From NCBI GenBank assembly GCA_963712745.1, contig CAVQJC010000011.1, positions 289,617-353,616 on the forward strand: a stretch of DNA of 64,000 nt. The letters run 5' to 3'. Origin of the DNA: an uncultured Chloroflexia bacterium (GTDB taxonomy: Bacteria > Chloroflexota > Limnocylindria > Limnocylindrales > CSP1-4). Below the pieces are notes generated by a model. It searched no databases. It saw only the letters and a program-made list of their open reading frames with translations, and had not been told where the DNA came from. A program made the position numbers and the translations under genes. Positions 30,242-58,205 of the stretch are shown here, piece by piece (within the stretch, counting starts at the first letter, position 1; each line of letters begins with the position of its first letter).

Positions 30242-30389
30242 GGCGGCCACGGCCGACGTCGCAGCGTGGGCTGGACCCCGGTCCCTCCGCCGAGGTCGTA
30301 GTCCGTTCGGCAGTCGACACCGTCGTGAGGGCGCTGGCACCATCGAGGCAGGGCGCCGAGCTGGTGTGCCCCGTTCCGGAGGAATGGAC

Positions 30390-38697: not shown

Positions 38698-38881
38698 GAA
38701 CATCCTATATTCGAGCACAAACGAGCATGTTCTGTCAACCTGCCGAGTGACAGGGACCCGAATGCCGCAAACGAGAACGGGCCATCGGTTACTTGCCGTG
38801 GTCGAGAGCGTAGTCGAGGATTTCCGCGAGACCCCGATGCCACTAGACCACGTGGCAGGATCTCCGGTCTGGGGGGCCGTG

Positions 38882-41372: not shown

Positions 41373-41386
41373 GCGGCTCCGCCGAC

Positions 41387-41782: not shown

Positions 41783-41788
41783 CCGGAG

Positions 41789-43483: not shown

Positions 43484-43513
43484 GTGTCGTTCTCCCTCCG
43501 CTGCCGTGCCTGA

Positions 43514-44746
43514 CTACTCTGTCGTTGGGTCGGCCCCAGGGCCGACCTCGAGGTCGAGCATGCCCGTGCTGGCCGCGCTCCGCTCATGCCTCTCGATCGC
43601 CTTCTCCGCTTCGATCGTGAGCTTGTCCATCTCGACGATGGAGCTGGCCATCTCCGGCAGTGCTTCACGGCGGTAGCGTGAGATCTCGTCGAGCGCGATG
43701 TTGATGTCGCGGAAGGCCGACTGCAGGGCGTCCATGTCGAGCATCGCGCTCGATGCCTGCTGGTGGATCTGGCTGCCTTGCGACTTGAGTCGCGCGGCAG
43801 TACCGGCGATCATGTCCGACGTCGTCCGGTTGAGCGCCTCGACCTTGTCCAGCACCACCTTCTGGTGGGCTACGGCCATGGCCACCGACACGGCCACCTG
43901 GAGGGCACTGATGGTGACGTCCAGGGCGCGGTTGACGCCACGGACGAGTTCACGGTTGTTGCGCACGATGATGGCGGTCGCGAGCACGCCCTGCTGATTC
44001 ACCGCCAGTTGCTGCTGCAGGTCCATCGTCCGCTGTCGCAGCACGAAGAGCAGCTCCTCCTCGATGAACGCCCGTCGAGGGTCGTCAGGTCCGATCTCGC
44101 GGTCGAGCTTGGCGCTGATGGCGGAGTCGAGCGCCTGGGCGAGTGCGACCTGCTCGGTGATCGTGACCGTCAGCTCGCGCATGTTCTTCTGATCGTCGTT
44201 GAGCGTGACGTTGTCGCGTTTCAGTTGGTCACGCCCACTCTCGAGCGAGCGGATGATGGCGTCGATGACGCCTTGCGAGGTCTCGAACTGCATGAAGTAG
44301 CGCTGCAGCGGCGTGCCCACGCCGGGAATCAGCCCAAGCGTGCGATTGAACCAGCCCGGGTCGAGGTTGAGCGAGGTTGGGTCGAGCTTCTCGACCTCGA
44401 TGCGCAAGTCCGAGAGCGACTTGGCCACGGGCCCGCCCTCCTCGCTCTCGCGAGCGAGGTCGCGCAACGGCGCCTGCAGCAGCCGGCTTCGCGTGGCGGC
44501 ACGTCGTTGCAGGTCCCGGCCCATGCCTTCGACAGCTTCGATCGAGGTGACGCGGGCATCCTGGTCGTCAGGATCGATAGTGATGAGCTGGTCAGCCACC
44601 GCAAGCGCACGCTCCTGGAGCTCATCGCTGACATCGGGTTCAGGAACGATGACCTCCGCCTTCGTGCCCTCAACGTCAAGGTCCAACCGCAGGGCCAGAG
44701 CCGTCTCGTCGTTGGCGTTGCCGTGCGTATCGCTCGCATCACTCAT
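43514..44746 (-). CDS. TelA/YaaN-family toxic-anion-resistance protein
   Basis: TelA-like length and coiled-coil layout: 'LDPGWFNR.LG.IPG', 'YF.QFETSQGVIDAII.SL..GRDQLKRDN'. Confidence 0.85.
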   Translation of the reverse strand: MSDASDTHGNANDETALALRLDLDVEGTKAEVIVPEPDVSDELQERALAVADQLITIDPDDQDARVTSIEAVEGMGRDLQRRAATRSRLLQAPLRDLARESEEGGPVAKSLSDLRIEVEKLDPTSLNLDPGWFNRTLGLIPGVGTPLQRYFMQFETSQGVIDAIIRSLESGRDQLKRDNVTLNDDQKNMRELTVTITEQVALAQALDSAISAKLDREIGPDDPRRAFIEEELLFVLRQRTMDLQQQLAVNQQGVLATAIIVRNNRELVRGVNRALDVTISALQVAVSVAMAVAHQKVVLDKVEALNRTTSDMIAGTAARLKSQGSQIHQQASSAMLDMDALQSAFRDINIALDEISRYRREALPEMASSIVEMDKLTIEAEKAIERHERSAASTGMLDLEVGPGADPTTE

Positions 44747-44805
44747 CGTTGCTCTCCCTCATGGTCGGGCCTTGGTCGTCTCGGTAGTGCATCACATCGA
44801 CGAGG

Positions 44806-45558
44806 TCATGTCGCGGCGTACCTGCCCGCTCGGTCGGCCAGCTCCTTGAGCGCATCCATGGCGGCTTCCGCGTCCTGCGGAGCGACGCCGATGGGTGCGT
44901 CTGCGAGTGCGGTGGAGGTGCGATCGAGCAGCGTCATGGCCGACTCATTCTGGGCCAGCAAGTAGGTCACCTTGGCCTCCTGTGCCGTGGCCAGCGCGCG
45001 ACGATCCTGGAGCGAGGTGATCTCAGCCTGCGCCCCGGATGCGTCGCCGGCGGACAGCTCTGCGAGCCGGACGTCGATGTAGTCGGTGTCGATGGCACTG
45101 ACGCTCTTCTTGGCGATGGCGACCTCGCGCAGGTTGGTGACGACTGCCAGGTAGACCTGCTGGGCGGTCGAGCGGTAGCGTGCGTACGTCAGCTCCCCGG
45201 TGTCGAGGCGGCTCCCGAGGATGGCCACCAGGGTGTCGCGCTTCTCGCCGATGGCATGGAGCTGGTAGGCGGGGCGCGGGTCCTCGAGTCGGTCCAGGTC
45301 GTCAGACAGCGCACGCAGCTCGATCGTACTGACCTCAGGCAGCCTCGGCGCCTGGAACTGGAGCCGGCGCAGTGTCCCGGTGGCGGACAGGGTGATCGGC
45401 CACAGGACGATGGCGACCGCGCCGATGCCGATGACGACGATCGCCAGCAACGTGGGCGGTTCGAGGAGCAGCAGGATCAGGACGACCGCCACCACGACCG
45501 CGGCGACGGCGATCCAGGACGGCGGATATCCGGCGACGGCGCGCCACCACGTTCTCAT
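44806..45558 (-). CDS. XpaC-like (5-bromo-4-chloroindolyl-phosphate-hydrolysis family) membrane protein
   Basis: Two N-terminal TM helices plus a helical C-domain. Its position directly upstream of telA mirrors B. subtilis xpaC-yaaN. The assignment rests on architecture and context only. Confidence 0.5.
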   Translation of the reverse strand: MRTWWRAVAGYPPSWIAVAAVVVAVVLILLLLEPPTLLAIVVIGIGAVAIVLWPITLSATGTLRRLQFQAPRLPEVSTIELRALSDDLDRLEDPRPAYQLHAIGEKRDTLVAILGSRLDTGELTYARYRSTAQQVYLAVVTNLREVAIAKKSVSAIDTDYIDVRLAELSAGDASGAQAEITSLQDRRALATAQEAKVTYLLAQNESAMTLLDRTSTALADAPIGVAPQDAEAAMDALKELADRAGRYAAT

Positions 45559-45796
45559 CTCGATACCCCTTCTGACAATCGAACCCAAGTGTGGTGCATG
45601 CAAGGGCCTTTCGGCAGGGAACAAGGAAGTGCGACTGCCCGACGGCAACGGCCGGCTGAACCTCCCTCGAGCCGCGCCGGTGCCGAAGTAGTCCCGGCGA
45701 CCGCCGGCTGAAGGGCGTGGCCGAGATCGGCGGCCACCCCGAACTCAAGCCGCCGCGCGCGATCGGGAGTGGTTCTCGTCCGTCCACTCTCTCTCA

Positions 45797-46150
45797 GTGC
45801 ATGCTGTGCACGAGTCCGACCCAGCGATCGTCCGATCCTGCAGGGGCCTGTGCACCCCGTGCACGAGCCCGTCCCGTCCGCTCTGGCCGTGCACCCAGTG
45901 CACGAGTCCGACCCAGCGATCGTCCGATCCTGCAGGGGCCTGTGCACCCCGTGCACGAGCCCGTCCCGTCCGCTCTGGCCGTGCACCCAGTGCACGAGTC
46001 CGACCCAGCGATCGTCCGATCCTGCAGGGGCCTGTGCACCCCGTGCACGAGCCCGTCCCGTCCGCTCTGGCCGTGCACCCCGTGCACGAGTCCGACCCAT
46101 CCGTCGCCCGATCCTGCAGGGGCCTGTGCACCCCGTGCACGAGCCCGTCC
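45797..46150. repeat. Non-coding tandem array: 92-bp unit x ~3.9, each unit carrying two GTGCAC-N3-GTGCACGAG modules
   Basis: The period was measured from CAGGGGCC at 45841, 45933, 46025 and 46117. 92 is not a multiple of 3, and all six frames are open across the array. Confidence 0.95.
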
Positions 46151-46218
46151 AGAATGTCCGGTGCCGATCACCCGGCGGGTGGGAACCCGCAGCGCGGGGC
46201 CACGACGACGGCTGCCCG

Positions 46219-46252
46219 GTCGAGTTCGGTCACCCGGTGATCGGCTGGTCGG
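46219..46252 (+). repeat. Left copy of a 34-bp imperfect direct repeat (GTCGAGTTCGGTCACCCGGTGATCGGCTGGTCGG)
   Basis: 32/34 identical to 54951..54984. Both copies are preceded by CTGCCCG. Confidence 0.85.
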
Positions 46253-46345: not shown

Positions 46346-46374
46346 TTGAGTGGTGGAGTGCCAGCGGCTAGGCT
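46346..46374 (+). promoter_or_regulatory. Candidate promoter TTGAGT-N17-TAGGCT for the first STAND gene
   Basis: Hexamers and spacing read from the sequence. The -10 lies 35 nt upstream of ATG 46410, with a GAGAGGA SD. Confidence 0.45.
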
Positions 46375-46409
46375 GGCCAGACGCCAATCATCTAGACGCG
46401 AGAGGACGT

Positions 46410-49400
46410 ATGACTCAGCGGCAGCCCTCATCGCGGCGGGGTCAGGCGGACGTACGGCAGACGCGAACGGGCTCCGCCGCCAGCGGTCGGCGCGCGCCCC
46501 GACTGGCCACCTTCATGGTCGTCGACCTGGCCGGATCGGACGCCGTCCTGGCGGGGCTCGGTGAGGGCCGTGCGGAGGCTTCGCGCCCGGCCTACGTCAC
46601 GCTCCTGCGCAACGCGGTCGCGGCACACGAGGGGAGCGAGCTGGTGCTGCTGGACGACCGAGCGTTGGTCGCCTTCGCCACCCCCTCGTCGGCGGTGGCT
46701 TCCGCCGTCTCGATCCAGCGAGCGGCCGAGCGGCACAATCGGTCCCACGACGATCGGCTCGATCCCCGCATCGGCATCCAGTTGGGCGAAGCCACCGAGC
46801 CCGTCTTCGCCTCAGGAGGTGGCGAGTACGTCGCACAGCCCGCGATCCAGGCCCGCCAGCTGTGTGAGGCTGCGCTCGCCGGTCACATCCTGGTGTCTGA
46901 ATGGGTCTCCGCCCTGGCTCGGCCGGAGCCATCGCTCTCCTTCGAACGAGCTGGGCTGATCGACCTCTCCGGGGCCCCGGAGCCAGTACCGACGTTCGAG
47001 GTCCGATTCCAGGACGCCCCGGACCGCCGGCCCTCGCTCCCGCCCGAGCTCGCCGCCCGGCCCAGGGGTCGCTGTTCCTTCGTGGGGCGGTCGTCGGAGC
47101 GAGAGCGGTTGCGCGCCGTGTGGAAGGCGGCGGCTGGCGGCAGGCGCCGGCTGGTCTTCGCAGTGGGCGAGCCCGGCATCGGCAAGAGCCGTCTGGCGGC
47201 GGAGTTCGCCATCGAGGCACATGCTGACGGCGCGGTCGTGTTCTCCGGCCGCTCGTTCGAGGAATCGGTCGTCCCGTACCAGCCGTTCGTCGAGGCGCTG
47301 CGCCAGTACGTCAACGACTGCGACCCGGTCGAGCTCGAAGCGCAGCTCGGTGCCGATCCGTCACCGCTGGTCACGCTGCTCCCTGAGCTGGCGGCACGTC
47401 TGCCGGGCCACACGGAGCTGCAGGCTGCGGAGGGCGAGCGTCATCGGCTCTTCGATGCCGTGGCCACACTGCTCTCGACCGTCTCGACCTCCTCGCCCGT
47501 CCTGCTCGTACTCGACGACCTGCAGTGGGCCGATCCGGCCACGCTGCTCCTGCTCAAGCATGTCGTACTCGACCCGCGGCCGGCCTCGATGCTCATCCTC
47601 GGGCTCTATCGCGACACCGAGGTCGGCGAGTCGCATCCACTGGCCCGGCTGCAGGCCGACGTCGAGCGCGACTTCACCGTCGACCGAGTCACCCTCACCG
47701 GCCTTGCCGACGCCGACGTCGCGAGCATGCTCGACGAGATGTTCGGTTGGTCGCCGCCGGTCACGGTCGCCCACGGCCTGCGCGAGGAGACCGAGGGCAA
47801 CCCGTTCTTCCTGCAGGAGGTCATCCATCAGCTCCACGAGACCGGCATCGCGGACGACCGCGAACGCCTGCTGCGGGGGCACCTCGTCTCGGATGGGATG
47901 GGGGTTCCCGAGCGGGTCCGGGACTTCGTGGCCAGGCGCATGCAGCGGCTTTCGACAGGCGCGCTCGAGATCCTCGCGGTCGCGGCCGTGGTGGGCACGG
48001 AGTTCGGCCTCGACATCCTCGCTAGCGTCCTCTCGGCAGACCCCGACCGACTCGTCGACGATCTCGAGGAGGCCGTCGAGGCGCGGCTCGTGGTAGAGGT
48101 TCCCGGTCGGCTCGGCACGTACTCCTTCGCCCATGCATTCTTCCAGGGCGCTCTCCATGAACGTCAGGGCGCCAATCGGCGTGCGCTGCTCCACGCGCGT
48201 GTGGCTGAGGCCATCGAGGATCTGCAGCCCGATGACCCCACGACGCTCTCAGAACTCGCGCGCCACTACGCGTTGACCGCCGGTCGCTACGCGCAGAAGG
48301 TCGTCCACTACGGCGCGGCTGCCGGCGATCGTGCGTTCGCGCAGCTAGCCTTCGAGGACGCCATCGCGGAGTACACCCGTGCGCTCGACGCACTCCCGCT
48401 GGTGGCTACTGCCCCCGAGTCGACCCAGGCCAACCTGCTCGTGCGCTTGGGTGAAGCCCAGACGCGTGTCGGTGACGCCGCGGCGGCCAAGGGATACTTC
48501 CTCGCGGCGGCCGATCTCTGCGTCAGGGAGAACTCGTTCGAACCCCTCGCGCGCGCCGCACTGGGCTACGGGGGGACCGGCAAGTTCGGAGCGATCTTCG
48601 ACCCATTCGGAGTCGTCAACGAGACGCTGGTCGATCTGCTCGAGCACGCCATCGCGGCTTGCCCGAGTGGCCAGGAACACGACCGCGTCCGACTGCTGGG
48701 CTGGCTGGCCCAGGCGCTCTACTGGTCGGACCAGGACGAGCGCCGGCATGTGCTGAGCCAGGAGGCGCTCGACACCGCACGCCGGATCGGCGAGCCCGCG
48801 GTCATCGCCCACGCCCTCCACAGCCGGCATGTCGCGCTGTGGGGGCCCGGCCACCTGCCTGAGCTTCGGGCGGCCGCCGAGGAGATGCTCGCGCTAGGCC
48901 GGTCCCTGGGCGATCGCGACATCCAGCTGAAGGCCTACACCTGGCTCATCACCGACGCCCTGCAGACAGATCCCATCGAGGTCGTGGACGGGTACATCGC
49001 GGACTATGCGGGCCTCGCAGAGGAGTTGCATCGACCGTACTTGCTGGGGTACGCCGAATCGATGCGCGCGGCGCGAGCGCACCTGGAAGGGCGATTCGAC
49101 GACATGATGCGGTCGATGTCTGCGCAACTCGCGCACTCCGAGGGTGCCGATGCTGATCGCGCGCAGGAGGCCCATCGCTGGCAGATGGGACTGTTCATGC
49201 TGGACCTCGATCGTGTCGACGACGCCTTGATAGGCACCCTCGCGGAACAGAGTGCACGCTATCCGGGACTGACCTTCGACGTGATGCTGGCGCTGGCCTA
49301 CGCCATCGTCGACCTCCGCGAGGAAGCCTGGGTGAAGCTGGCCCGGCTGGCGCCCGAGGATCTGGCCTCGATCCCCAGGGACTGCATGTGGGCCGGCACG

Positions 49401-49841
49401 ATGGCCATGCTCTCGAGGGTCGTCTACAAGCTTGGGGCGGTCGAGTACGCGCGACCCCTCTACGACCTCTTGGCCCCCTACGCTGAGCGCAACAGCATCT
49501 GGGGTTCAGGATTCATCGTCTTTGGCCCCACCAGTCGGTTCCTGGGCCTGCTCGCGACCACCTTCGGCGAACCGGACCTGGCCATCCCTCGCCTCGAACA
49601 CGCGATCCAGCGCTGCCAGGACCTCCACTCGCCCCCACTGGCGGCACGAGTGAGGACCGACATGGCGAGAGCGTTCCTGGCACGTGGCGCCGACGGCGAC
49701 GTGGAGCGGGCCCGTCGGTCGCTCGAGGACGCCCGGCTCACCGCTGCGGAGCTTGGCTTGTCCGGCCTGGGACAGGAGGTAGTCGACCTCCTGTCGACTG
49801 CCACGCTGCCGGGCGCGCGCACGGCCTCGGATGCCACTTGA
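46410..49841 (+). CDS. STAND-type NTPase: class-III-cyclase-like domain + P-loop NTPase + TPR/helical-repeat region; no C-terminal HTH seen
   Basis: 'VVDLAGS...LLDDRALVAF...RIGIQLGEA' cyclase-homology layout. Walker A 'GEPGIGKSRL'. Walker B 'VLLVLDDLQWAD'. Long helical-repeat tail. Confidence 0.85.
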   Translation: MTQRQPSSRRGQADVRQTRTGSAASGRRAPRLATFMVVDLAGSDAVLAGLGEGRAEASRPAYVTLLRNAVAAHEGSELVLLDDRALVAFATPSSAVASAVSIQRAAERHNRSHDDRLDPRIGIQLGEATEPVFASGGGEYVAQPAIQARQLCEAALAGHILVSEWVSALARPEPSLSFERAGLIDLSGAPEPVPTFEVRFQDAPDRRPSLPPELAARPRGRCSFVGRSSERERLRAVWKAAAGGRRRLVFAVGEPGIGKSRLAAEFAIEAHADGAVVFSGRSFEESVVPYQPFVEALRQYVNDCDPVELEAQLGADPSPLVTLLPELAARLPGHTELQAAEGERHRLFDAVATLLSTVSTSSPVLLVLDDLQWADPATLLLLKHVVLDPRPASMLILGLYRDTEVGESHPLARLQADVERDFTVDRVTLTGLADADVASMLDEMFGWSPPVTVAHGLREETEGNPFFLQEVIHQLHETGIADDRERLLRGHLVSDGMGVPERVRDFVARRMQRLSTGALEILAVAAVVGTEFGLDILASVLSADPDRLVDDLEEAVEARLVVEVPGRLGTYSFAHAFFQGALHERQGANRRALLHARVAEAIEDLQPDDPTTLSELARHYALTAGRYAQKVVHYGAAAGDRAFAQLAFEDAIAEYTRALDALPLVATAPESTQANLLVRLGEAQTRVGDAAAAKGYFLAAADLCVRENSFEPLARAALGYGGTGKFGAIFDPFGVVNETLVDLLEHAIAACPSGQEHDRVRLLGWLAQALYWSDQDERRHVLSQEALDTARRIGEPAVIAHALHSRHVALWGPGHLPELRAAAEEMLALGRSLGDRDIQLKAYTWLITDALQTDPIEVVDGYIADYAGLAEELHRPYLLGYAESMRAARAHLEGRFDDMMRSMSAQLAHSEGADADRAQEAHRWQMGLFMLDLDRVDDALIGTLAEQSARYPGLTFDVMLALAYAIVDLREEAWVKLARLAPEDLASIPRDCMWAGTMAMLSRVVYKLGAVEYARPLYDLLAPYAERNSIWGSGFIVFGPTSRFLGLLATTFGEPDLAIPRLEHAIQRCQDLHSPPLAARVRTDMARAFLARGADGDVERARRSLEDARLTAAELGLSGLGQEVVDLLSTATLPGARTASDAT

Positions 49842-49866
49842 GCGGCGACGAGGAGCGGGCTAGGCT
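49838..49866 (+). promoter_or_regulatory. Candidate promoter TTGAGC-N17-TAGGCT for the second STAND gene; the -35 overlaps the stop codon of the first
   Basis: Same hexamers and spacing as 46346..46374. GAGGGAGGG SD before ATG 49904. Confidence 0.45.
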
Positions 49867-49903
49867 GGCACTCACGCGGGACGCTACGTGCGAGGGAGGG
49901 CGG

Positions 49904-52900
49904 ATGACGCCGAGGCAGCCCCGGTTCGATGTCGATGAGGCCGATCTACCGTCGGCTGAACCTGCATCCCTGGGCGACGGTCACGGGCCATCCCAGCTGG
50001 TCACCTGCCTGGTCATCGACCTCGCCGAGTCGAACGCGGTCCTTGAGCGGCTCGGCGAGGGGCGTGGGGATGCCTCGCGTAGCGCATACCCGACGCTTCT
50101 GCGCAACGCTCTTGTCGCTCAGCATGGCCGGGAGCTTTCACGCCGCGACGATCGCGTGCTGGCTGCGTTCGACGTGCCTACGGAGGCCGTGGCCTGTGCC
50201 GTGGCCGTGGTGCGCTCAGCCGAGCGGCACAACCGGCGGCAGGCTGGCAGGCTCGACGTCCGCGTCGGGATCCAGATCGGCGAAGCTGACGAAGCGGCGT
50301 TGACCTCCGAGCGCGGCGACCTCATCGCTCGTCCCGCGATACAAGCAGCGCAATTGTGCGCTGCAGCCGCCGACGGCCAGATCCTGGTCTCCGATCTGGT
50401 GGCGGTCCTGACCCGCGCCGACTTGTCCATCCGCTTCGAGCGCGCCGGCCTCCTCGACATCGCCGAGGCGACCGATCCGTTGCCCACCTTCGAGGTGGTC
50501 CACCGCGAGCTTCCCAGCGACCGCCCGCCGTTGCCGCCGGGGCTGGCTGCGCGGCCCTCCGGCCGCTGTTCGTTCGTGGGCCGCGGAGCGGAGCGCGAAC
50601 ACCTGTTGAGGCTGTGGGCCGCGGCCGCCGACGGCGAGCGCCGCCTGGTCTTCGCGCTGGGCGAGCCCGGCATCGGCAAGAGCCGTCTGGCGGCCGAGTT
50701 CGCGGCCGAAGCGCACGCCGACGGGGCCGTCGTACTCTCCGGCCGCTCGTTCGAGGAGTCGATCGTCCCCTACCAGCCATTCGTCGAGGCCCTGCGTCAG
50801 TACGTCGCCGACTGCGATCCTGCCGGGCTCGAGGCACAGCTGAGCCCCGACCCGACCGCGCTCCTGACGCTCGTGCCGGAGCTCGCGGCTCGCATCCCGT
50901 CGCCCGCGACCCGCGAAACGAACGAGGGCGATCGCTACCGGCTATTCGATGCGGTCGCCGCCTTGCTCTCGACCATCTCCGTCAGTTCGCCGGTGCTGCT
51001 CGTGCTCGACGACCTGCAGTGGGCCGATCCGGCCACACTGCTCCTGCTCAAGCACATCGCGCTCGATCCACGCCCCGCCTCGATGCTCATCCTTGGGCTC
51101 TACCGCGACACCGAGGTCGGGATGTCGCACCCGCTGACCCAGCTGCAGGCCGACGTCGAGCGGGATCTCGCCATCGACCGCGTCTCGCTGGCCGGCCTTG
51201 CCGACGCCGACGTCGCCAGCATGCTCGACGAGATGATCGGCTGGTCACCACCATCAGCCGTGGCCCGTGGGCTACGCGAAGAGACCGAGGGCAATCCGTT
51301 CTTCCTGCAGGAGGTCATCCACCAGCTCGACGAGTCGGGTATCACGACCGACCGCGAACGCCTGCTTCGCGGGCACCTCGTCTCGGGGGGGCTCGAGGTA
51401 CCCGATCGCGTCCGGGACTTCGTCGCCCGGCGCCTGCAGCGTCTTGCGCCCGCTGCGCTCGAGATCCTCGGCGCGGCCGCGATTGTGGGCACGGAGTTCA
51501 GCCTCGACGTCCTTGCACGGGTGCTGGTGGCCGATCCGAGCCGACTCGTCGACGACCTCGAGGAGGCCGTGGAGGCACGCCTGGTCATCGAGATCCCCGG
51601 TCGCGCCGGCACGTACGCCTTCACGCATGCGCTCTTCCAGCAGACGCTCCACGACCGGCACGGCAGCAACCGACGGGCCTCGCTCCATGCGCGCGTGGCC
51701 GATGCCATCGAGACGCTGCACCCGGACGATCCATCGGCGCTGTCGGACCTGGCCCGGCACTACGCACTGACCGCCGGACGCTACGCGGAGAAGGTCGTCC
51801 TCTACGGTGCAGCGGCTGGTGACCGCGCCTTCGCGCAGCTGGCGTACGAAGATGCGCTACAGGAGTACGGCCGGGCGCTCGACGCGCTTCCGCTGGTGGC
51901 TTCGGCCGACGAGCTGACAAAGGCTGACCTGCTGGTGCGTCTGGGTGAGGCCCAGACGCGTGTCGGCGACGCGGCAGCTGCCAAGCGGTCCTTCCTCGCG
52001 GCCGCCGAACACTGCGTCGACGAGGGCTCGTCCAGCATCCTCGCTCGGGCTGCACTGGGCTACGGGGGCACCGGCAAGTTCGGCGGCATCTTCGATTCCT
52101 TCCAGGTGGTCAACGAGACCCTGGTGGGTCTGCTCGAGCGTGCCATCGAGGCCTGTCCGCACGACGAGCAAGCCACACGCGTCCGACTGCTGGGACGCCT
52201 GGCACAGGCGCTGTACTGGTCGGACGACCGGGAGCGCATGCTCACGCTGAGCCAGGAGGCACTCGACTCCGCTCGCTGCATCGGCGACCCTACGGTCATC
52301 GCTCATGCCCTCCACAGCCGCCATGTCGCGCTGTGGCATCCCGACCACCTCCCGCAGATCCGCGCGGCTGCCGAGGAGATGCTCGCGCTGGGCGAGTCGG
52401 AGGGCGACCGGGACATCCAGCTGAAGGCCTACACCTGGCTCATCACCGACGCCTTGGAGACCGATCCATTCGAGGTCGTGGACCAGTACGTCGCGGGCTA
52501 TGTCGGGCTTGCCGAGGAGCTCCACCGGCCCTACCTGCTTGGATACGCGGACGCCATCCGCGCAGCACGCGCACATCTCGAGGGTCGTTTCGACGAGATG
52601 GCCCGGCTGATGGGCGCCCAGCTCGCCCATACCGATGGGGCCTACGCGCGCCGCGCGAAGGAGGCGCACCGCTGGCAGCTGGGGTTGCTCCTGCTGGACA
52701 TCGGTCGTGTCGACGATGCCCTGATCGTCGAGCTCTCCGAGCGTGCGGCCCGTCACCCGGGGCCCACGTTCAGGGCGATGCTGGCGTTGGCCTACGCTAC
52801 AGTGGACCGCCGGGACGAAGCCGCCGCGGAGCTGGCCGGGTTGGCCAACGGAGACCTTGGCTCGATCGCGAGGGATTGCATGTGGGCAGCCACGCTGGCC

Positions 52901-53329
52901 ATGCTTGCGCGGGTCGTCTCTAGGCTCGAGGCGGTCGAGCACGCCCGTTCCCTGTACGACCTGCTTGCGCCCTATGCCGACCGCAACTGCCTGTGGGGCT
53001 CCGGGTTCATGATCCTGGGACCCATCAGCCGCTATCTGGGCAGGCTGGCCACGACATTCGGCGAGCCCGACCAGGCTCTGGCGCACCTCGAGCATGCACT
53101 TGGACGCTGCCACGAACTGGGCTCGCCTCCGCTGATCGCGAGGACGAAGGTCTCGATGGCGCGGGCGCTGTCACGACGCGGCCTCGAAGGCGATGAGGCG
53201 CGCGCGCGCATCCTGCTCGCGGAAGCGAGCCGTAGTGCTTCCGAGATGGGGATGCCCGGGCTGGCCGATAGTTGCAGGCAAGTGTTCGCGGAGATCGGAC
53301 CCCGCGTGAGCGAGGCCCCAGCCCGATGA
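49904..53329 (+). CDS. STAND-type NTPase paralog (cyclase-like + P-loop + TPR)
   Basis: Colinear with 46410..49841 and highly similar by eye (for example SRLAAEFA.EAHADGAVV.SGRSFEES.VPYQPFVEALRQYV). Same Walker motifs. Confidence 0.85.
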   Translation: MTPRQPRFDVDEADLPSAEPASLGDGHGPSQLVTCLVIDLAESNAVLERLGEGRGDASRSAYPTLLRNALVAQHGRELSRRDDRVLAAFDVPTEAVACAVAVVRSAERHNRRQAGRLDVRVGIQIGEADEAALTSERGDLIARPAIQAAQLCAAAADGQILVSDLVAVLTRADLSIRFERAGLLDIAEATDPLPTFEVVHRELPSDRPPLPPGLAARPSGRCSFVGRGAEREHLLRLWAAAADGERRLVFALGEPGIGKSRLAAEFAAEAHADGAVVLSGRSFEESIVPYQPFVEALRQYVADCDPAGLEAQLSPDPTALLTLVPELAARIPSPATRETNEGDRYRLFDAVAALLSTISVSSPVLLVLDDLQWADPATLLLLKHIALDPRPASMLILGLYRDTEVGMSHPLTQLQADVERDLAIDRVSLAGLADADVASMLDEMIGWSPPSAVARGLREETEGNPFFLQEVIHQLDESGITTDRERLLRGHLVSGGLEVPDRVRDFVARRLQRLAPAALEILGAAAIVGTEFSLDVLARVLVADPSRLVDDLEEAVEARLVIEIPGRAGTYAFTHALFQQTLHDRHGSNRRASLHARVADAIETLHPDDPSALSDLARHYALTAGRYAEKVVLYGAAAGDRAFAQLAYEDALQEYGRALDALPLVASADELTKADLLVRLGEAQTRVGDAAAAKRSFLAAAEHCVDEGSSSILARAALGYGGTGKFGGIFDSFQVVNETLVGLLERAIEACPHDEQATRVRLLGRLAQALYWSDDRERMLTLSQEALDSARCIGDPTVIAHALHSRHVALWHPDHLPQIRAAAEEMLALGESEGDRDIQLKAYTWLITDALETDPFEVVDQYVAGYVGLAEELHRPYLLGYADAIRAARAHLEGRFDEMARLMGAQLAHTDGAYARRAKEAHRWQLGLLLLDIGRVDDALIVELSERAARHPGPTFRAMLALAYATVDRRDEAAAELAGLANGDLGSIARDCMWAATLAMLARVVSRLEAVEHARSLYDLLAPYADRNCLWGSGFMILGPISRYLGRLATTFGEPDQALAHLEHALGRCHELGSPPLIARTKVSMARALSRRGLEGDEARARILLAEASRSASEMGMPGLADSCRQVFAEIGPRVSEAPAR

Positions 53330-54936
53330 GCGAGTCTGGAGCGGCGGGCGCCGCACTCACCATCGCGGACGAGGTGGAGCGCATCGCACCAGGCGCGACC
53401 TGGCGGGAGCTGTGCCGATGGCCGCCCGACGTCTTCGCAGCCACCGGTTCGATCCTGGCGGACTCGGGCGCCTACCGCAGCGTTGTCTGCCCACCGGAGG
53501 GGAGGTCTTGGCCGCCGCCGATCGATGGCGATGGCGAGACGGAGTGGGAGCGGGCGATCCCGCGCGCGGGTGGCGAGTGGGCCGAGTGGTCCTCGGCGTC
53601 GGAGCTCATCGGCGATCCGCCGGCGCCTGTGGACCGGTTCGTCACTGCCCTTGACGCGGCCGGCGACACGCCCATCACTGAGCTCGACGAGCCGCCCAGC
53701 TGGGAGACGGTGACGGCGCTGTTCGGTCTCCATGCCATGGCCGACGAGGCCAGTGCCGGGGCTGGTCTCGACTCGGCCACGAAGTTCCAAAGAGTGGCCC
53801 TCGAGACGCTCGAGGCGACCGGCTCGCTCTCGCGCCTGCCCACCGATCGCGTGCGCGTGCTGCCCAAGCTCAGGCCCCCCGAATCCGGGATCACGCTGCG
53901 CTCGATCTCTCACAACCTTGCGCTCGATCGTTCGGAGGTGCGCACTACCTGGCTGCGGGCACCGGCACCACGGTCCAACGCTCCGGCCTCACAACGTGGT
54001 CGTCTGACGCTCCTGCTCGTGCCTTTCCCGTCCAACGTGCATGCCAATGACTTCCGTCCCGTCCGCGGTCCGCTGCTGAACATGGACAGCAGCCGCTACG
54101 GCTTCTTCGAGTACGCTCCCACCGAGCCGCTCGACCTCGAACGCATCATCGCTCTGGTGAGGTCCGCGCAGCTGCGTGTCGGTGCCATCGACGCGGTCGT
54201 GCTGCCGGAGGCCGCCCTCGACGAATCGGTCGTGGCGGATCTCCAGGAGCTCGTGTGCGGGGTCGGAGTCCCATATCTCATCGCCGGCGTCCGCCGGGCG
54301 GCGACCGAGGACGAGCCGTTCGCCACGAACTACGCCTACTTTGGTGGCGCCGGCTGGCACGCGGCCCAGCACAAGCACCACCGCTGGTGCCTGGACCCGA
54401 CCCAGGTGCACCAGTACCACCTTGGCGCGGCGCTCGAGCCGAACCACCGCTGGTGGGAGGCCATCCGCATCCAGCGGCGGAGTCTCAACTTCATCACCAC
54501 CGCCGAGCCTGAGGGCCTGACCATCTGCCCGCTCGTGTGCGAGGACCTCGCGCGGCCGGACCCGGTAACCGACGTCATCCGGGCAGTGGCGCCGACGCTG
54601 GTGGTCGGGCTCCTGCTCGATGGGCCGCAGCTGGTGGCTCGCTGGCCGGCACGCTACGCCAGCGTGCTCGCGGACGACCCGGGCAGCTCAGTGCTGACGC
54701 TGACCGCGCTGGGCATGGCCTGGCGCAGCCAGCCGTCGGGCTTCGACGCATCCCGCGTCATCGCCCTGTGGAAGGACCCGCACCGCGGCCTCCAGCAGAT
54801 CGCCCTCGCTCGGGATGCGCGAGCGGTAGCGTTGACCGCGCACCGCCGTGAGGTGGAGGTGGTCTCGGCCGACGGACGTACGAGCTCGCATCCGGTCTCC
54901 GAGCTGGTCCTGTCGGGGCTGGAGCAGATCGATTGA
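53326..54936 (+). CDS. Hypothetical protein (536 aa), translationally coupled to the STAND paralog; the C-terminal half has a possible nitrilase/C-N-hydrolase-like Glu-Lys-Cys pattern
   Basis: ATGA start/stop overlap at 53326-53329. G/C-rich third positions. Segments 'IDAVVLPEAAL', 'AQHKHHRW', 'GLTICPLVCEDL'. The functional guess is weak. Confidence 0.6.
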   Translation: MSESGAAGAALTIADEVERIAPGATWRELCRWPPDVFAATGSILADSGAYRSVVCPPEGRSWPPPIDGDGETEWERAIPRAGGEWAEWSSASELIGDPPAPVDRFVTALDAAGDTPITELDEPPSWETVTALFGLHAMADEASAGAGLDSATKFQRVALETLEATGSLSRLPTDRVRVLPKLRPPESGITLRSISHNLALDRSEVRTTWLRAPAPRSNAPASQRGRLTLLLVPFPSNVHANDFRPVRGPLLNMDSSRYGFFEYAPTEPLDLERIIALVRSAQLRVGAIDAVVLPEAALDESVVADLQELVCGVGVPYLIAGVRRAATEDEPFATNYAYFGGAGWHAAQHKHHRWCLDPTQVHQYHLGAALEPNHRWWEAIRIQRRSLNFITTAEPEGLTICPLVCEDLARPDPVTDVIRAVAPTLVVGLLLDGPQLVARWPARYASVLADDPGSSVLTLTALGMAWRSQPSGFDASRVIALWKDPHRGLQQIALARDARAVALTAHRREVEVVSADGRTSSHPVSELVLSGLEQID

Positions 54937-54950
54937 CTGCCCGCAGGCCA

Positions 54951-54984
54951 GTCGAGTTCGGACACCCGGTGACCGGCTGGTCGG
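54951..54984 (+). repeat. Right copy of the 34-bp imperfect direct repeat
   Basis: GTCGAGTTCGGACACCCGGTGACCGGCTGGTCGG. It starts 15 nt after the stop of CDS 53326..54936. Confidence 0.85.
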
Positions 54985-55102: not shown

Positions 55103-56415
55103 CTACGCCAGCAGCTCTTGGGCCACGGTAGCGGCCGTGGCGGCGTCCTTGGCGAAGCCGTCGGCCCTGATCTCGGCCGCGAACTCGTCGGTCACCGGGA
55201 CGCCACCGACCATGACCTTGGCCGCGGGCGCCGCCGCGCGCATGGCGCTGACCGCGTCCTTCATGCCCATCATCGTGGTGGTCAGGAGGGCGCTGATGCC
55301 GACGATGTCGGCGCCGTGCTCCACCGCGCTGTCGGCGAAGGCCGCGGGCCAGCCGTTGGTGACGAGATCGACGATCTCGTGCACGGTTTCATACAACTCG
55401 ATGGTGTTCTCGATGGGCGTTTCGGGCAGAACGTAGTCGTGGCTGGGGGAGGCGACATAGCCGCCACCGGGCATCATGACCTCCAGGACCTCGCGAGTCC
55501 TGCTCCTCACGAGGTCGGGAGTGCCCTCGAGGACGAACTTGGTATCGATGCAGCCGTTCATCAGGATCCGGTCGCCGAACGCCGCCTTCAGTTCAGACGG
55601 CTCCATGCCCCCGGCGGATGGCTGCAGTGCCTGCAAGCCATCCAGGCCGATCTCGATCATCGTGGGGATGAGGGGCGCAAAGCCGCCGTAGCAATGCATC
55701 ATCACCTTCAGGCCGTAGTCATGACCGAGCTCCACCAGGCGCTTCAGGTGCGGGGCGAAGAAGCGACGGAAGGTGGCTTCGCTCATCAGCGGCCCGTTCA
55801 TGCCGCCGAAATCGTTGCCGATGAAGAAGATGTCGATGAGATCGGCCGCCGCGTCGAAGATGCGCTCGCTGACCCCGAAGTAGTAGTCCACGATGTCCTC
55901 GTGGAGGGCTTCCACCAGCTCGGGTTCCTCGTACATCTTGACGAGGAGGTTCTCCATGTCGAGCAGGTCGATGGCGTCGCGCCAGAAGGGGGACCAGTCC
56001 CCCCAGGATCGCGTACTCCCCCTGCCAGTCTCCGATCTCCGCCCGGATGCCAGCGGCACTCATCCAGGCCGGATCGGGCCAGGGATAGTCGTGCACCTCT
56101 CGTAGCGTGGCGCCGGCTAGCGGGTGACTCCGGGGCATGCCACAGCCGTAACCGTGCCGCTCCACGCCGAAGGGCAAGCGCTACGTGAAGCCCGGGGCCA
56201 GGTTCGCATCGGGGCCGGATCCGATAGGCCCCGCGTAGGTCGCGTGCACGCGCCTGAAGTCATCTCCCAGGAAGACCGACAGGGCTTCGTCATCCGGCAA
56301 CCCCAGGTGGTCGAACATCGCCTGCCTGGTCTCAGGGGCAGCGCCGAACCATGCTGGCACCGCGGTCCGGTTCCTCGAAGGCGAAGGCTGCCAACACGCG
56401 GTCCCTGGATGTCAT
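55103..56415 (-). pseudogene. Decayed uroporphyrinogen-decarboxylase-family (MtaA/CmuA-like) methyltransferase fused to the distal part of a B12-binding domain
   Basis: Reconstructed reading MTSRDRVLAAFAFEEPDR|VPAWFGAAPE...GFT*RLPFGVERHGYG...EYAILGG|DWSPFWRDAIDLLDMENLL... It needs a frameshift near 56357-56368, read-through of TAG 56181-56183, and a frameshift at the C6 run 55999-56004. The tail 'ADIVGISALLTTTM...VMVGGVPVTDEFAAEIRADGFAKDA' is B12-domain-like, but no DxHxxG is visible. Confidence 0.8.
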
Positions 56416-56464
56416 GGTGCCCCATCAGCCACGTCAGTCCCCCTCGCTGCGCCCCGTATCCACG

Positions 56465-58168
56465 CTAGAACAGGCCGACCGGGCGTCCCTGCTCGTCGAT
56501 GTCGACGTTCTCACCGGCAGGACGGCTGGGCAGGCCCGGCATCGTGCGCATGTCGCCCGCGAGCGGGTAGATGAAGCCCGCGCCCGCGGCCAGCTTGACC
56601 TCGCGGATGGGCACCCGGAAGCCGGACGGCCGGCCCAGCAGCGCCGGATCGTGCGACATCGAGAGGTGGGTCTTGGCCATGCACACCGGCAGGTGGCTGT
56701 AGCCCAGCCGGTCGTACTCGGCCAGGGCCTTGGCCGCGGCCGGCGCGAGGTCGATGCCGTCGGCCCCATAGACCTTCGTGGCGATGGTCTCGATCTTCTC
56801 GAGCAGCGGCATCGCGTCGGGGTAGAGCAGCCTGAACTCGGACGGCTCGGACGCCGCCTCCCACACCGCCGCGGCCAGCGCTTCTGACCCGGCCCCGCCG
56901 TCGGCCCAGTGGGTGGTCACGACCGCATCGCGGGCGCCGGCTGCCAGCGCCACCTCGCGGATGACCTCGAACTCCGAGGCGGCGTCACCCGGGAAGGCGT
57001 TGATGGCCACCACCACCGGCACGCCGTACTGGCGCACCAGCTCGATCTGGGCGGCGAGGTTCTGGCCACCCGCGCGCACCGCCTCGGGGTCCTCCGCCAG
57101 CAGCGCCGGGTCGAGCGGCTTGCCGGCCACGATGCGACCCACGCCACCGTGCATCTTCAGGGCCCGCACCGTGGCCACCACCACCGCGGCATCGGGCGCC
57201 ATGCCCGAGGCGCGGCACTTGATGTCGAAGAACTTCTCTGCCCCCATGTCCGCGCCGAAGCCGGCCTCGGTGACGACGATGTCGCTGGTCGCCAGGGCGA
57301 CCCGGTCGGCGAGGATGGAGCTGTTGCCATGGGCGATGTTGGCGAAGGGCCCGGCATGGACGAAGGCCGGCCCGCCCTCGAGGGTCTGCAGCAGGTTGGG
57401 CTTGATGGCATCGAGCAGGAGCACGGTCATGGCCCCGGCCACGCCCAGGTCCTCGGTCGTGACCGCTTTCCCCGACCGGTCGGTGGCGAGCACGATGCGA
57501 CCCAGCCGCGCGCGCAGGTCGAAGACGTCGGTGGCGAGGGCCAGGATGGCCATGACCTCGCTGGCCACGGTGATGACGAACTCGCTCTCGCGCGGCACCC
57601 CGTTGACCTTGCCGCCGAGGCCGATGTTGACCTTGCGCAGGGCGCGGTCGCTGATGTCGACCACCCGCGGCCAGGTGATCGAATAGGGGTCGATGTCGAG
57701 CGGATCGCCATGGTGGAGGCTGTTGTCGAGGAAGGCGCTCGCGAGGTTGTGCGCGGCGCCGATGGCGTGCACGTCACCGGTGAGGTGGAGGTTGAAGTCC
57801 TCCATGGGGATGATCTGCGAATAGCCGCCGCCGGCGGCCCCGCCCTTGATGCCGAAGACCGGGCCCAGCGAGGGCTGGCGGATGGCGACCGCGGCCGTGT
57901 GGCCGATGCGGTTGAGACCCTGCACCACACCGACGGTGGTGGTGGTCTTGCCCTCGCCCAGCGGGGTCGGCGTGATGGCGGTCATGACCACGTACCGGCC
58001 GCGCGGGTTCTCGCGCTCGACACGTCTGAGCCCCTCGAGCGTGACCTTGGCCTTGGTCGCGCCGTAGGGTTCGATCTCATCGGGCCGCAGCCCGAGCTCG
58101 GCAGCGATGTCGGTGATGGGCCGGGGGGTGACCGAGCGGGCGATGTCGAGGTCGGTCAGGGCGGTCAT
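56465..58168 (-). CDS. fhs: Formate--tetrahydrofolate ligase
   Basis: 567 aa. 'TAITPTPLGEGKTTTTVG' P-loop region and family-typical sequence throughout. Confidence 0.95.
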   Translation of the reverse strand: MTALTDLDIARSVTPRPITDIAAELGLRPDEIEPYGATKAKVTLEGLRRVERENPRGRYVVMTAITPTPLGEGKTTTTVGVVQGLNRIGHTAAVAIRQPSLGPVFGIKGGAAGGGYSQIIPMEDFNLHLTGDVHAIGAAHNLASAFLDNSLHHGDPLDIDPYSITWPRVVDISDRALRKVNIGLGGKVNGVPRESEFVITVASEVMAILALATDVFDLRARLGRIVLATDRSGKAVTTEDLGVAGAMTVLLLDAIKPNLLQTLEGGPAFVHAGPFANIAHGNSSILADRVALATSDIVVTEAGFGADMGAEKFFDIKCRASGMAPDAAVVVATVRALKMHGGVGRIVAGKPLDPALLAEDPEAVRAGGQNLAAQIELVRQYGVPVVVAINAFPGDAASEFEVIREVALAAGARDAVVTTHWADGGAGSEALAAAVWEAASEPSEFRLLYPDAMPLLEKIETIATKVYGADGIDLAPAAAKALAEYDRLGYSHLPVCMAKTHLSMSHDPALLGRPSGFRVPIREVKLAAGAGFIYPLAGDMRTMPGLPSRPAGENVDIDEQGRPVGLF

Positions 58169-58205
58169 GGATGGTCGTCCTCCTCGTCGTGTGATGGCGC
58201 CGGGC

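What the first reader, a model, noticed from the sequence alone, without database searches (positions are those of the whole stretch)
46346..54936. Three-gene module: two tandem cyclase-like/P-loop/TPR STAND paralogs plus a translationally coupled unknown protein
Two ~1140-aa paralogs are colinear and highly similar by eye. Each has a class-III cyclase-homology domain, a Walker A/B NTPase and a long TPR-like region. This resembles the mycobacterial cyclase-ATPase-TPR-LuxR regulators but has no recognisable C-terminal HTH. The second paralog's stop overlaps (ATGA) the start of a 536-aa protein with no family I can name. That protein's C-terminal half shows a beta-strand/Glu (VVLPEAAL), Lys (HKHHRW) and Cys (ICPLVCEDL) succession reminiscent of the nitrilase/C-N-hydrolase triad. 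A sensor-STAND pair coupled to a putative hydrolase is the layout of many signal-triggered effector or conflict systems. I am not aware of this particular combination being described.
Basis: partly seen in the sequence, partly recalled or inferred. Interest (0 to 1): 0.75.

Follow-up and report, generated by a model that had tools for sequence, protein, structure and literature searches.

The report
STAND-coupled divergent nitrilase-fold enzyme operon
Two duplicated ATP-switch sensor proteins whose cyclase domain has lost key catalytic residues are co-translated with an unannotated enzyme that has a nitrilase (carbon-nitrogen hydrolase) fold and an intact Glu-Lys-Cys triad. This pairing recurs in related bacteria and looks like a signal-gated amidase, not an established phage-defence system.

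Summary
Genes A (46410-49841) and B (49904-53329) are 70% identical over 1122 residues without gaps. Both have the layout class-III cyclase-homology domain, AAA_16 STAND NTPase, TPR-like repeats, and neither has an HTH. B's stop overlaps (ATGA) the start of C (53326-54936, 536 aa).

C has no Pfam, NCBIfam, PADLOC or PHROG hit. Its AlphaFold model (pLDDT 89) matches only nitrilase-superfamily structures in the PDB. A profile alignment to E. coli YafV places E295, K350 and C405 on the catalytic triad, and these residues are invariant in 84 homologues. The N-terminal 170-residue helical domain has no structural match.

The STAND-to-C pair, with its 4-bp overlap, recurs in at least 8 independent contigs. 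The full trio recurs in one (L107). In this C-linked STAND clade the cyclase substrate Lys and transition-state Arg are mostly lost, whereas unlinked relatives keep them.

C belongs to a large dark family (about 2,600 clusters at 50% identity). Elsewhere it is fused to PAS domains or lies near LuxR-STAND, cyclase-TPR or GAF-kinase genes.

The neighbourhood is metabolic and syntenic, not a defence island. My best reading is a STAND-gated amidase-type enzyme. The defence reading is not excluded but has little support.

The parts
46410..49841 (+). STAND paralog A (1143 aa from the ATG; the longest ORF starts at GTG 46350). Cyclase-homology domain about 46503-47024, AAA_16 NTPase about 47079-47588 (Walker A 47166-47189), TPR-like helical repeats about 48267-49769. 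No HTH.
49904..53329 (+). STAND paralog B (1141 aa; SD-like GGAGGG lies upstream of the ATG). Cyclase-homology domain about 49997-50518, AAA_16 about 50573-51085 (Walker A 50660-50683), TPR-like repeats about 51761-53263. The stop TGA at 53327-53329 overlaps C's ATG.
53326..54936 (+). Gene C, 536 aa. It belongs to an unannotated family and is translationally coupled to B through an ATGA overlap.
53326..53835 (+). N-terminal all-helical domain of C (residues 1 to about 170). W32 is invariant and P33-P34-D35 nearly so (76-83 of 84); R51 and D140 are invariant, E141 is in 80 of 84. No structural match was found in the PDB.
53848..54933 (+). Nitrilase-superfamily-like domain of C (residues about 175-536). 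Catalytic codons are E295 (54208-54210), K350 (54373-54375) and C405 (54538-54540). A family-specific insert between the Lys and the Cys carries a WWE motif (376-378).
46211..46252 (+). Left copy of a 42-nt direct repeat that brackets the A-B-C module. It lies 158 nt upstream of A's ATG.
   Evidence: D7
54943..54984 (+). Right copy of the 42-nt direct repeat (88% identical). It lies 7 nt after C's stop codon.
45806..46150 (.). 92-bp tandem repeat, 3.8 copies, 98% identical, rich in GTGCAC. It lies in the upstream intergenic region, and whether it relates to the module is unknown.

Best explanation
A-B-C is an operon encoding a signal-gated enzyme.

Gene C is a very divergent member of the nitrilase (carbon-nitrogen hydrolase) superfamily. 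It has an intact Glu295-Lys350-Cys405 triad and a family-specific N-terminal helical domain. By analogy with the superfamily, it should cleave or transfer an amide, carbamoyl or nitrile C-N bond through a thioacyl-enzyme intermediate. Its substrate is unknown, but the many invariant polar and aromatic residues suggest it is highly specific.

A and B are STAND ATP switches. They descend from cyclase-AAA_16-TPR cAMP-signalling proteins. In the C-linked clade the cyclase-homology domain has lost the purine-specifying Lys and the transition-state Arg, so cAMP is probably no longer the output.

The inferred mechanism is as follows. A ligand binds the TPR array and drives ATP-dependent oligomerisation. 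This controls C by direct protein-protein contact, with translational coupling setting the stoichiometry. Nitrilase-fold enzymes generally need oligomerisation to be active, which makes such control plausible. The two diverged paralogs would give two input specificities or form a hetero-oligomer.

Shown here: the gene structure, domain homologies, predicted fold, triad conservation, operon conservation and decay of the cyclase residues. Inferred: enzymatic activity, physical interaction between the STANDs and C, and the direction of control.
For: C fold and triad:
- The AF2 model has pLDDT 89 and pTM 0.90.
- All top 50 Foldseek PDB hits are nitrilase-superfamily enzymes (Nit2, Nit3, beta-ureidopropionase, AmiF, PH0642 amidase). 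E-values reach 4.5e-7, probability is 1.0, and target-normalised TM reaches 0.59.
- hhalign of the family profile against E. coli YafV aligns VLPE to VLPE, QHKHHRW to YDKRHLF and PLVCEDLARP to PLVCYDLRFP.
- E295, K350, C405, E406 and D407 are invariant in 84 of 84 homologues from several phyla.

Linkage:
- A STAND lies immediately upstream of C, mostly with a 4-bp overlap, in L002, L003/L004, L087, L090, L102, L105 and L106.
- Two tandem STANDs plus C occur in L107.
- Across pairs, STAND identity (44-70%) tracks C identity (58-76%).

Cyclase decay:
- Canonical relatives at 40% identity or less keep D-K-D-D-[V/I]-R, as does the active cyclase Ma1120 (K101, D157, A164, R168; PMC4215837).
- A and B have D-V/S-D-E/D-I-Q, and most of the C-linked clade has lost the Lys and the Arg.

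Variable regulatory inputs on a constant catalytic core:
- PAS fusions occur at either end of the protein.
- A conserved 130-aa C-terminal extension is present in 58 of about 80 distant homologues and absent from the window.
- LuxR-STAND genes lie within about 6 kb in roughly 25 of 80 loci.
- Cyclase-TPR genes are convergently adjacent in L019 and L064, and GAF-HisKA_3 kinases lie upstream in L009, L012 and L013.

Both paralogs are under purifying selection (dN/dS 0.24).
Against: - No sequence profile (Pfam CN_hydrolase) matches any of 49 family members, even at E <= 10. A PDB sequence-profile search also found nothing. Superfamily assignment therefore rests on a predicted structure and a weak profile alignment (hhalign E 0.022).
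- No experiment or complex model shows contact between a STAND and C.
- Some close C homologues lack a STAND. L001 is standalone, L096 has none, and P0075 is paired with an unknown 720-aa protein.
- At least one C-linked STAND (P0134 in L087) keeps all cyclase residues, so loss of cyclase activity is not universal.
- The two metal-binding Asp residues are retained in A and B, so residual or altered nucleotide chemistry cannot be excluded.
- The substrate is unknown.
Confidence: 0.5

Rival explanations
1. This is an NLR-like conflict or anti-phage system. The STAND pair would act as sensor and helper that recognise an invader protein through their TPRs, oligomerise, and release the nitrilase-fold protein as a toxic, abortive-infection effector.
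For: - The layout of a STAND NTPase plus a separate enzymatic partner is typical of Avs/bNACHT-like systems.
- Nitrilase domains occur in validated defence systems, such as the RT-nitrilase system described as reminiscent of type-I DRT (PMC9122126).
- Distribution is patchy and spans several phyla: 333 of about 185,000 species genomes.
- Some genomes carry multiple copies (L033/L034, L048/L050).
- STAND relatives at 42-44% identity swap the cyclase domain for DUF4062, and L104 holds two of them.
- A TelA/VWA block and repeats have been inserted just upstream.
- A 42-nt direct repeat brackets the module.
Against: - PADLOC gives no hit for A or C. B gets only a weak PycC hit (E 0.0024), which reflects generic cyclase homology.
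- Neighbours in every locus examined are metabolic or regulatory and differ between loci. I recognised no restriction, toxin-antitoxin, integrase or other defence genes, apart from one PIN-domain gene about 5 kb downstream of the standalone C homologue in L001.
- The module sits in a syntenic chromosomal position in the window and in L002, between DeoR/E1 dehydrogenase and the URO-D/B12 genes.
- C is strongly conserved, with about 50 invariant residues across phyla, unlike fast-evolving effectors.
- No viral structural relatives were found.
Confidence: 0.12
2. This is a metabolic feedback unit. C produces or destroys a small molecule that is itself the ligand sensed by the STAND TPRs. The STANDs then signal to other targets and do not regulate C itself.
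For: - Co-transcription of an enzyme with the sensor of its substrate or product is common.
- LuxR-type STANDs near distant C homologues fit the logic of a regulator placed beside a metabolic gene.
- SDR and aldo-keto reductase genes lie next to C in several loci (L022, L026, L031, L054), and further off in L048.
Against: - A and B have no DNA-binding or other recognisable output domain, and their cyclase output is degraded. No downstream path is therefore visible.
- The conserved 4-bp overlap points to stoichiometric co-production, which is more typical of complexes.
- No metabolic neighbour is consistently conserved across loci.
Confidence: 0.15
3. A and B are ordinary cAMP-producing cyclase-STAND sensors or LAL-type transcription regulators, and C is merely an unrelated downstream gene.
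For: - The architecture matches the abundant group that sources name 'class 3 adenylate cyclase/TPR repeat protein'.
- The two metal-binding Asp residues are retained.
Against: - No HTH is present.
- The substrate Lys and transition-state Arg are lost specifically in the clade linked to C.
- The pair, with overlapping stop and start codons, is retained from 70% down to 44% STAND identity. It is absent from the two nearest relatives examined outside the pseudo-cyclase group: L103, which still scores as a Pfam cyclase, and L104, which carries DUF4062 instead.
Confidence: 0.05

Closest known systems
Nitrilase / carbon-nitrogen hydrolase superfamily (for example Nit2/Nit3 omega-amidases, E. coli YafV, AmiF formamidase, beta-ureidopropionase)
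   Same: C has the predicted alpha-beta-beta-alpha fold. Its Glu-Lys-Cys triad lies in the same strand-end motifs: VLPE, a Lys followed by a basic or aromatic stretch, and PLVC-x-D-L. The acid two residues after the Cys is also conserved.
   Different: No sequence-profile membership could be shown: PF00795 is not hit by any member. C carries an extra 170-residue helical N-terminal domain with no fold match. It has a roughly 20-residue insert between the Lys and the Cys with an invariant WWE motif, and it has Glu in place of the usual Tyr/Trp after the Cys. It is coupled to STAND or PAS sensor modules. The substrate is unknown.
   Same: The domain order is the same: CHD, then STAND NTPase, then helical or TPR repeats. 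Identity to canonical members is 36-40% over about 95% of the length. The Walker A and B motifs are intact.
   Different: A and B lack the C-terminal LuxR HTH. They lack the substrate Lys and the transition-state Arg that canonical members and Ma1120 keep. They are translationally coupled to the nitrilase-fold gene.
Bacterial STAND/NLR-like defence systems (Avs, bNACHT) and RT-nitrilase (DRT1-like) systems
   Same: Both combine a STAND NTPase with repeat sensors and an enzymatic partner. A nitrilase fold is used in some defence systems.
   Different: There is no homology to the PADLOC models. The genomic context is not a defence island. The effector is a separate, highly conserved gene, not a variable fused domain. 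The STAND clade derives from signalling cyclases.

Membership tests
Nitrilase (CN-hydrolase) superfamily | Alpha-beta-beta-alpha sandwich fold | tested here: met
   The AF2 model (pLDDT 89) was searched with Foldseek. All top 50 PDB hits are nitrilase-superfamily enzymes, with probability 1.0, E down to 4.5e-7 and TMt up to 0.59. This rests on a predicted, not a solved, structure.
Nitrilase (CN-hydrolase) superfamily | Catalytic Glu-Lys-Cys triad at the conserved motif positions | tested here: met
   hhalign to YafV aligns E295, K350 and C405 with the YafV triad motifs. All three are invariant in 84 of 84 homologues. Conservation of C405 is partly biased, because the scan pattern used to collect homologues contained it.
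Nitrilase (CN-hydrolase) superfamily | Match to the family sequence profile (Pfam PF00795 CN_hydrolase) | tested here: not met
   No hit for C or for any of 49 homologues, even at E <= 10. The PDB profile search was also empty. The hhalign E-value is only 0.022.
Nitrilase (CN-hydrolase) superfamily | Second catalytic Glu (tetrad) and hydrolytic or acyl-transfer activity | not testable with these tools
No biochemistry is available.
STAND NTPases (AAA_16 type) | P-loop NTPase with Walker A and B, flanked by an N-terminal output domain and C-terminal repeats | tested here: met
   PF13191 matches at E 8e-27 and 2e-27. GEPGIGKS and VLLVLDD are present. TPR_12 is weak here but clear in homologues.
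Catalytically competent class-III nucleotidyl cyclases | Two metal-binding Asp residues, the substrate-specifying Lys/Asp pair, and a transition-state Arg (with or without Asn) | tested here: not met
   Homology is clear (Ma1120 E 5e-13). However, Lys is replaced by Val (A) or Ser (B), and Arg by Gln in both. Canonical relatives keep D-K-D-D-x-R. Pfam PF00211 scores below its cutoff (E 0.037).
LAL / LuxR-type large ATP-binding regulators | C-terminal GerE/LuxR helix-turn-helix | tested here: not met
   No GerE or other HTH hit in A or B. Neighbouring LAL proteins in other loci score GerE at E 1e-12 to 1e-20 with the same tool.
Known anti-phage systems (PADLOC-DB v2) | Match to a defence-system protein model and location among defence genes | tested here: not met
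   Only B gets a weak PycC hit (E 0.0024) through generic cyclase similarity. A and C have none. The flanking genes are metabolic.

The most novel reading that the evidence does not exclude
The module is a previously unrecognised NLR-like immune or stress system. A paired sensor/helper STAND, with a pseudo-cyclase adaptor domain, assembles on a trigger and activates a nitrilase-fold effector of a new deep branch. That effector would kill or arrest the cell by deamidating or de-acylating an essential metabolite or protein. More broadly, the roughly 2,600-cluster C family would then be a new class of signal-gated C-N hydrolase output shared by STAND, PAS and two-component inputs.
Probability: 0.12. 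Interest if true: 0.85.

Novelty: new variant of a known kind. Interest (0 to 1): 0.55.

Why it matters
This assigns a fold and a probable catalytic mechanism to a large protein family that currently has no annotation. The family has about 2,600 clusters at 50% identity, occurs in 333 species genomes, and spans Actinomycetota, Myxococcota, Acidobacteriota, Planctomycetota and Bdellovibrionota. It would extend the nitrilase superfamily by a branch that sequence profiles miss.

It also documents an apparent output swap in evolution. Cyclase-STAND sensors that acquired this partner mostly lost their cyclase catalytic residues. This makes testable the idea that STAND switches can gate a separate enzyme post-translationally.

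If the minority defence reading were true, it would add a new effector chemistry to bacterial NLR-like immunity.

Tried and rejected
- Pfam, NCBIfam, PADLOC and PHROGs searches on C, whole and split into halves, at relaxed thresholds: nothing.
- PDB sequence-profile search with the family alignment: no hits at E <= 10.
- Fold search of the N-terminal domain alone: no credible match, best E 2.5.
- Fold search of the full model against viral structures: nothing at E <= 0.001.
- The idea that the STAND supplies the C-terminal helical extension seen in long-form homologues: a six-frame HMM search of the window found no trace of it.
- Apparent N-terminal extensions of C homologues (L061, L072, L005, L056, L053): no domains, so these are probably over-extended ORFs in high-GC DNA.
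- The 42-nt flanking repeat: absent from the other fetched loci (searched with up to 7 substitutions), and no analogous repeats around the module in L002, L003, L105 or L106. It remains unexplained.
- Exact look-up of the window's own C protein, and cluster names, to identify the organism: no record and no names.
- Literature searches for nitrilase together with STAND found only the RT-nitrilase defence systems and no description of this pairing.
- The LAL-regulator reading was rejected because there is no HTH.
- The active-cyclase reading was rejected on the residue analysis.
Full report
**1. What is there**

The region holds three co-directional genes.
- Gene A is the ORF 46350..49841, with a probable ATG at 46410.
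- Gene B is the ORF 49838..53329, with a probable ATG at 49904 preceded by GGAGGG.
- Gene C runs 53326..54936, and its ATG overlaps B's TGA as ATGA.

A and B are 70% identical over 1122 residues without a single gap. A Nei-Gojobori calculation gives dS 0.86 and dN/dS 0.24. The cyclase-like domain (55% identity) and the distal repeats (64%) are the most diverged parts. The duplication is therefore old and both copies are maintained by selection. About 45 nt of 5' leader, including CTAGGCTGGC, was duplicated along with the gene. The next gene downstream lies on the opposite strand, so A-B-C is the whole unit.

**2. The STAND paralogs**

Both match AAA_16 (E about 1e-27) and carry Walker A GEPGIGKS and Walker B VLLVLDD. 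NCBIfam aligns residues 115-696 to the cyclase-AAA-TPR part of the TOMM kinase/cyclase fusion model, far below that model's cutoff.

The N-terminal 180 residues are homologous to class-III cyclases of known structure: Mycobacterium avium Ma1120 (E 5e-13) and LipJ/Rv1900c (E 5e-7). Pfam's Guanylate_cyc model, however, is only marginal (E 0.037). No HTH is detected. LuxR-type STANDs in other loci are detected easily with the same tool.

The database search shows that A and B belong to the very common family of about 1100-aa proteins that sources name 'class 3 adenylate cyclase/TPR repeat protein'.

**3. The cyclase domain has lost catalytic residues**

Ma1120 is an active adenylyl cyclase. Its substrate residues are K101 and D157, its transition-state residue is R168, and it has Ala in place of the usual Asn (PMC4215837). 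I aligned Ma1120 to about 115 family members.
- Every relative at 40% identity or less has D-K-D-D-[V/I]-R, the Ma1120 pattern.
- A has D-V-D-E-I-Q and B has D-S-D-D-I-Q.
- Most of the 44-71% identity clade has lost the Lys and the Arg. The more distant members of that clade also change the first metal Asp to Glu.
- A few members keep the full set (P0134, P0135, P0138, P0155, P0159, P0161).

Given what is established about class-III cyclases, loss of the Arg and the Lys should severely impair catalysis. This is an inference and was not measured.

**4. Gene C is a divergent nitrilase-fold protein**

C has no Pfam, NCBIfam, PADLOC or PHROG match. None of 49 homologues hits CN_hydrolase even at E <= 10. 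A PDB sequence-profile search was also empty.

With a 49-sequence alignment, AlphaFold2 gives a confident model (pLDDT 89, pTM 0.90). Foldseek against the PDB returns 68 hits at E <= 0.001. All of the top 50 are nitrilase-superfamily enzymes: Nit2, Nit3, mouse Nit2, beta-ureidopropionase, AmiF and BceAmiF formamidases, Pyrococcus amidase, vanin and N-carbamoylputrescine amidohydrolase. Probability is 1.0 and target-normalised TM reaches 0.59.

A profile alignment to E. coli YafV (2-oxoglutaramate amidase, fetched) is statistically weak (E 0.022). It nevertheless superposes exactly the three catalytic motifs: VVLPE on VIVLPE, QHKHHRW on YDKRHLF, and ICPLVCEDLARP on ILPLVCYDLRFP. E295, K350, C405, E406 and D407 are invariant in 84 of 84 homologues. 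C401 varies, so the nucleophile is C405.

Between the Lys and the Cys there is a family-specific insert with a near-invariant WWE motif and a well-conserved R385 (75 of 84).

The first roughly 170 residues form a well-predicted helical domain (pLDDT 93). W32 is invariant and P33, P34 and D35 nearly so; R51 and D140 are invariant, and E141 is conserved in 80 of 84. The domain has no structural match in the PDB, best E 2.5.

**5. The family**

The word-indexed search finds more than 3,650 clusters at 90% identity. The exhaustive profile search finds 2,591 clusters at 50% identity with E <= 0.001, of which 1,499 have E <= 1e-30. A pattern scan of species-representative genomes finds relatives in 333 species. 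Most are Actinomycetota (Gaiellaceae, Thermoleophilia, Acidimicrobiia, Streptosporangiaceae, Kribbella, Mycobacterium). Others are Myxococcota, Planctomycetota, Acidobacteriota and Bdellovibrionota. None carries an informative functional name; the only names sources give reflect the fused PAS domain.

Most distant members are about 690 aa. They have an extra conserved helical extension of about 130 aa at the C-terminus (58 of about 80 loci). Gaiellaceae members carry a C-terminal PAS domain instead, and some members carry an N-terminal PAS. The window's C is a short form. The extension is not encoded anywhere in the window.

**6. Linkage**

Starting from C, within the short-form clade (57% identity or more), a STAND orthologue lies directly upstream in these loci. 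Identities are to the window's B and C.

| Locus | STAND identity | C identity |
|---|---|---|
| L002 | 70% | 76% |
| L003/L004 (same lineage as L088/L089) | 45% | 62.5% |
| L087 | 50% | 63% |
| L090 | 46% | 61% |

Starting from the STAND:
- L102 has C downstream (65-68% over the part present).
- L105 and L106 have C downstream with a 4-bp overlap.
- L107 carries an A-like copy, a B-like copy and C. The trio therefore predates the split between L107 and the window.
- Thirteen further pairs have matching contig lengths in the two hit lists.

Counter-examples are L001 (C alone), L096 (frameshifted C beside a P-type ATPase) and P0075 (C overlapping an unknown 720-aa gene). STAND relatives just outside the clade are not followed by C. 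These are L103, which still scores as a Pfam cyclase, and L104, which has DUF4062 in place of the cyclase domain.

None of the 80 distant C homologues has this STAND type upstream. However:
- About 25 have a STAND-TPR-LuxR regulator within roughly 6 kb.
- L019 and L064 have a convergent cyclase-TPR gene 5-128 nt away.
- L009, L012 and L013 have a GAF-HisKA_3 kinase and a LuxR-type response regulator upstream.

These associations are suggestive. I could not correct them for phylogeny or for the high background of such regulators in Actinomycetota.

**7. Context**

Downstream of C lie a URO-D/B12-binding methyltransferase-like gene, formate-THF ligase, a formate-dehydrogenase-like molybdoenzyme and a Nuo51-like subunit. 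Upstream lie TelA, a VWA protein and several unknowns. Beyond them are a DeoR regulator and E1 dehydrogenase/transketolase-like genes.

L002 has DeoR and E1 immediately upstream of its single STAND, and URO-D/B12/THF genes downstream. The module therefore sits at a syntenic chromosomal position. Window 38.7-46.3 kb is an insertion relative to L002. Neighbours in the other loci are unrelated metabolic or regulatory genes. I saw no integrases, restriction systems or other defence genes, and the only toxin-like gene is a PIN-domain ORF about 5 kb downstream of the standalone C homologue in L001.

**8. Interpretation**

The constant part is the catalytic core plus the helical domain. The variable part is the regulatory input: PAS in cis, a helical extension in cis, a STAND in trans, or nearby LuxR-STAND, cyclase-TPR or kinase genes. 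That pattern fits a tightly regulated enzyme acting as an output of signal transduction.

In the window's clade, three things coincide: conserved translational coupling, the lack of any other output domain in the STAND, and decay of the cyclase catalytic residues. Together they argue that C has replaced cAMP synthesis as the functional output of the switch. Nitrilase-fold enzymes are generally active only as oligomers (established knowledge of the superfamily). STAND-driven assembly is therefore a plausible activation route. That step is inference.

The conflict-system reading is not excluded. In its favour are nitrilase domains in RT-nitrilase (DRT1-like) defence systems, DUF4062-STAND cousins, patchy distribution, and the flanking 42-nt repeat. 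It lacks positive support from context, from PADLOC, or from evolutionary rate.

**9. Unexplained features**

A 42-nt direct repeat (88% identical, none expected by chance) brackets the module precisely, at 46211-46252 and 54943-54984. It is absent from the other fetched loci. A 92-bp tandem array of 3.8 copies, rich in GTGCAC, lies just upstream at 45806-46150.

**10. Verdict**

The structural guess about the third protein was right. The module is a conserved functional unit. It is best filed as a new variant that combines two known kinds: a pseudo-cyclase STAND switch and a deep-branching nitrilase-fold enzyme. The substrate and physiological role are unknown. Interest is moderate to high (0.55).

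Noticed in passing
window 45806-46150: A 92-bp tandem repeat of 3.8 copies, 98% identical, with four GTGCAC palindromes per unit. It lies in the intergenic region about 260 nt upstream of gene A. The motif GTGCACGAGYCCGWCCC occurs 8 times here and nowhere else in the window.
   Followed up: partly
window 46211-46252 and 54943-54984: A 42-nt direct repeat (88% identical; the 34-nt core has 2 mismatches) brackets the A-B-C module exactly. It contains a CACCnGGTG palindrome. It is absent from the other fetched loci, and related modules have no analogous flanking repeats. It could be an operator pair or an insertion or duplication scar.
   Followed up: partly
window 38696-45648: A block of about 7 kb is absent from the syntenic locus L002, so it is an insertion next to the module. 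It holds a 343-aa unknown, a 552-aa unknown with weak tape-measure PHROG hits, a VWA protein (41789-43483, minus strand), TelA (43514-44746, minus strand) and a 280-aa unknown.
   Followed up: partly
L104 609-3188 and 7338-11165: Two STAND genes whose N-terminal domain is DUF4062 in place of the cyclase-homology domain. One is 42% identical to A and B over the NTPase and TPR parts. This is an effector-domain swap within the same STAND lineage, and neither gene is followed by a C homologue.
   Followed up: partly
L006, L016, L020, L066 and others (about 58 of 80 genome loci), just after the C-homologous region: Long-form C homologues carry a conserved helical C-terminal extension of about 130 aa (ELTILTxWAEA...APWR...EPS...VRRVLRSALE) with no Pfam match. 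Gaiellaceae members carry a PAS domain there instead.
   Followed up: partly
L019 9724-11511 (minus strand), L064 1793-3919 (minus strand): Cyclase (PF00211) plus TPR proteins without a detected NTPase domain lie convergently 5-128 nt from C homologues in Acidimicrobiia. This is a second, independent association of the C family with cyclase-TPR sensors.
   Followed up: no
window 55103-62924 (minus strand): A C1-metabolism cluster: a URO-D/B12-binding fusion, formate-tetrahydrofolate ligase, a formate-dehydrogenase-like molybdopterin oxidoreductase and a Nuo51-like subunit. It is partly syntenic with L002.
   Followed up: no
window 30366-32036 (plus strand): A 556-aa protein with multiple Kelch repeats, which are uncommon in bacteria. 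It lies next to a luciferase-like monooxygenase (33220-34059).
   Followed up: no
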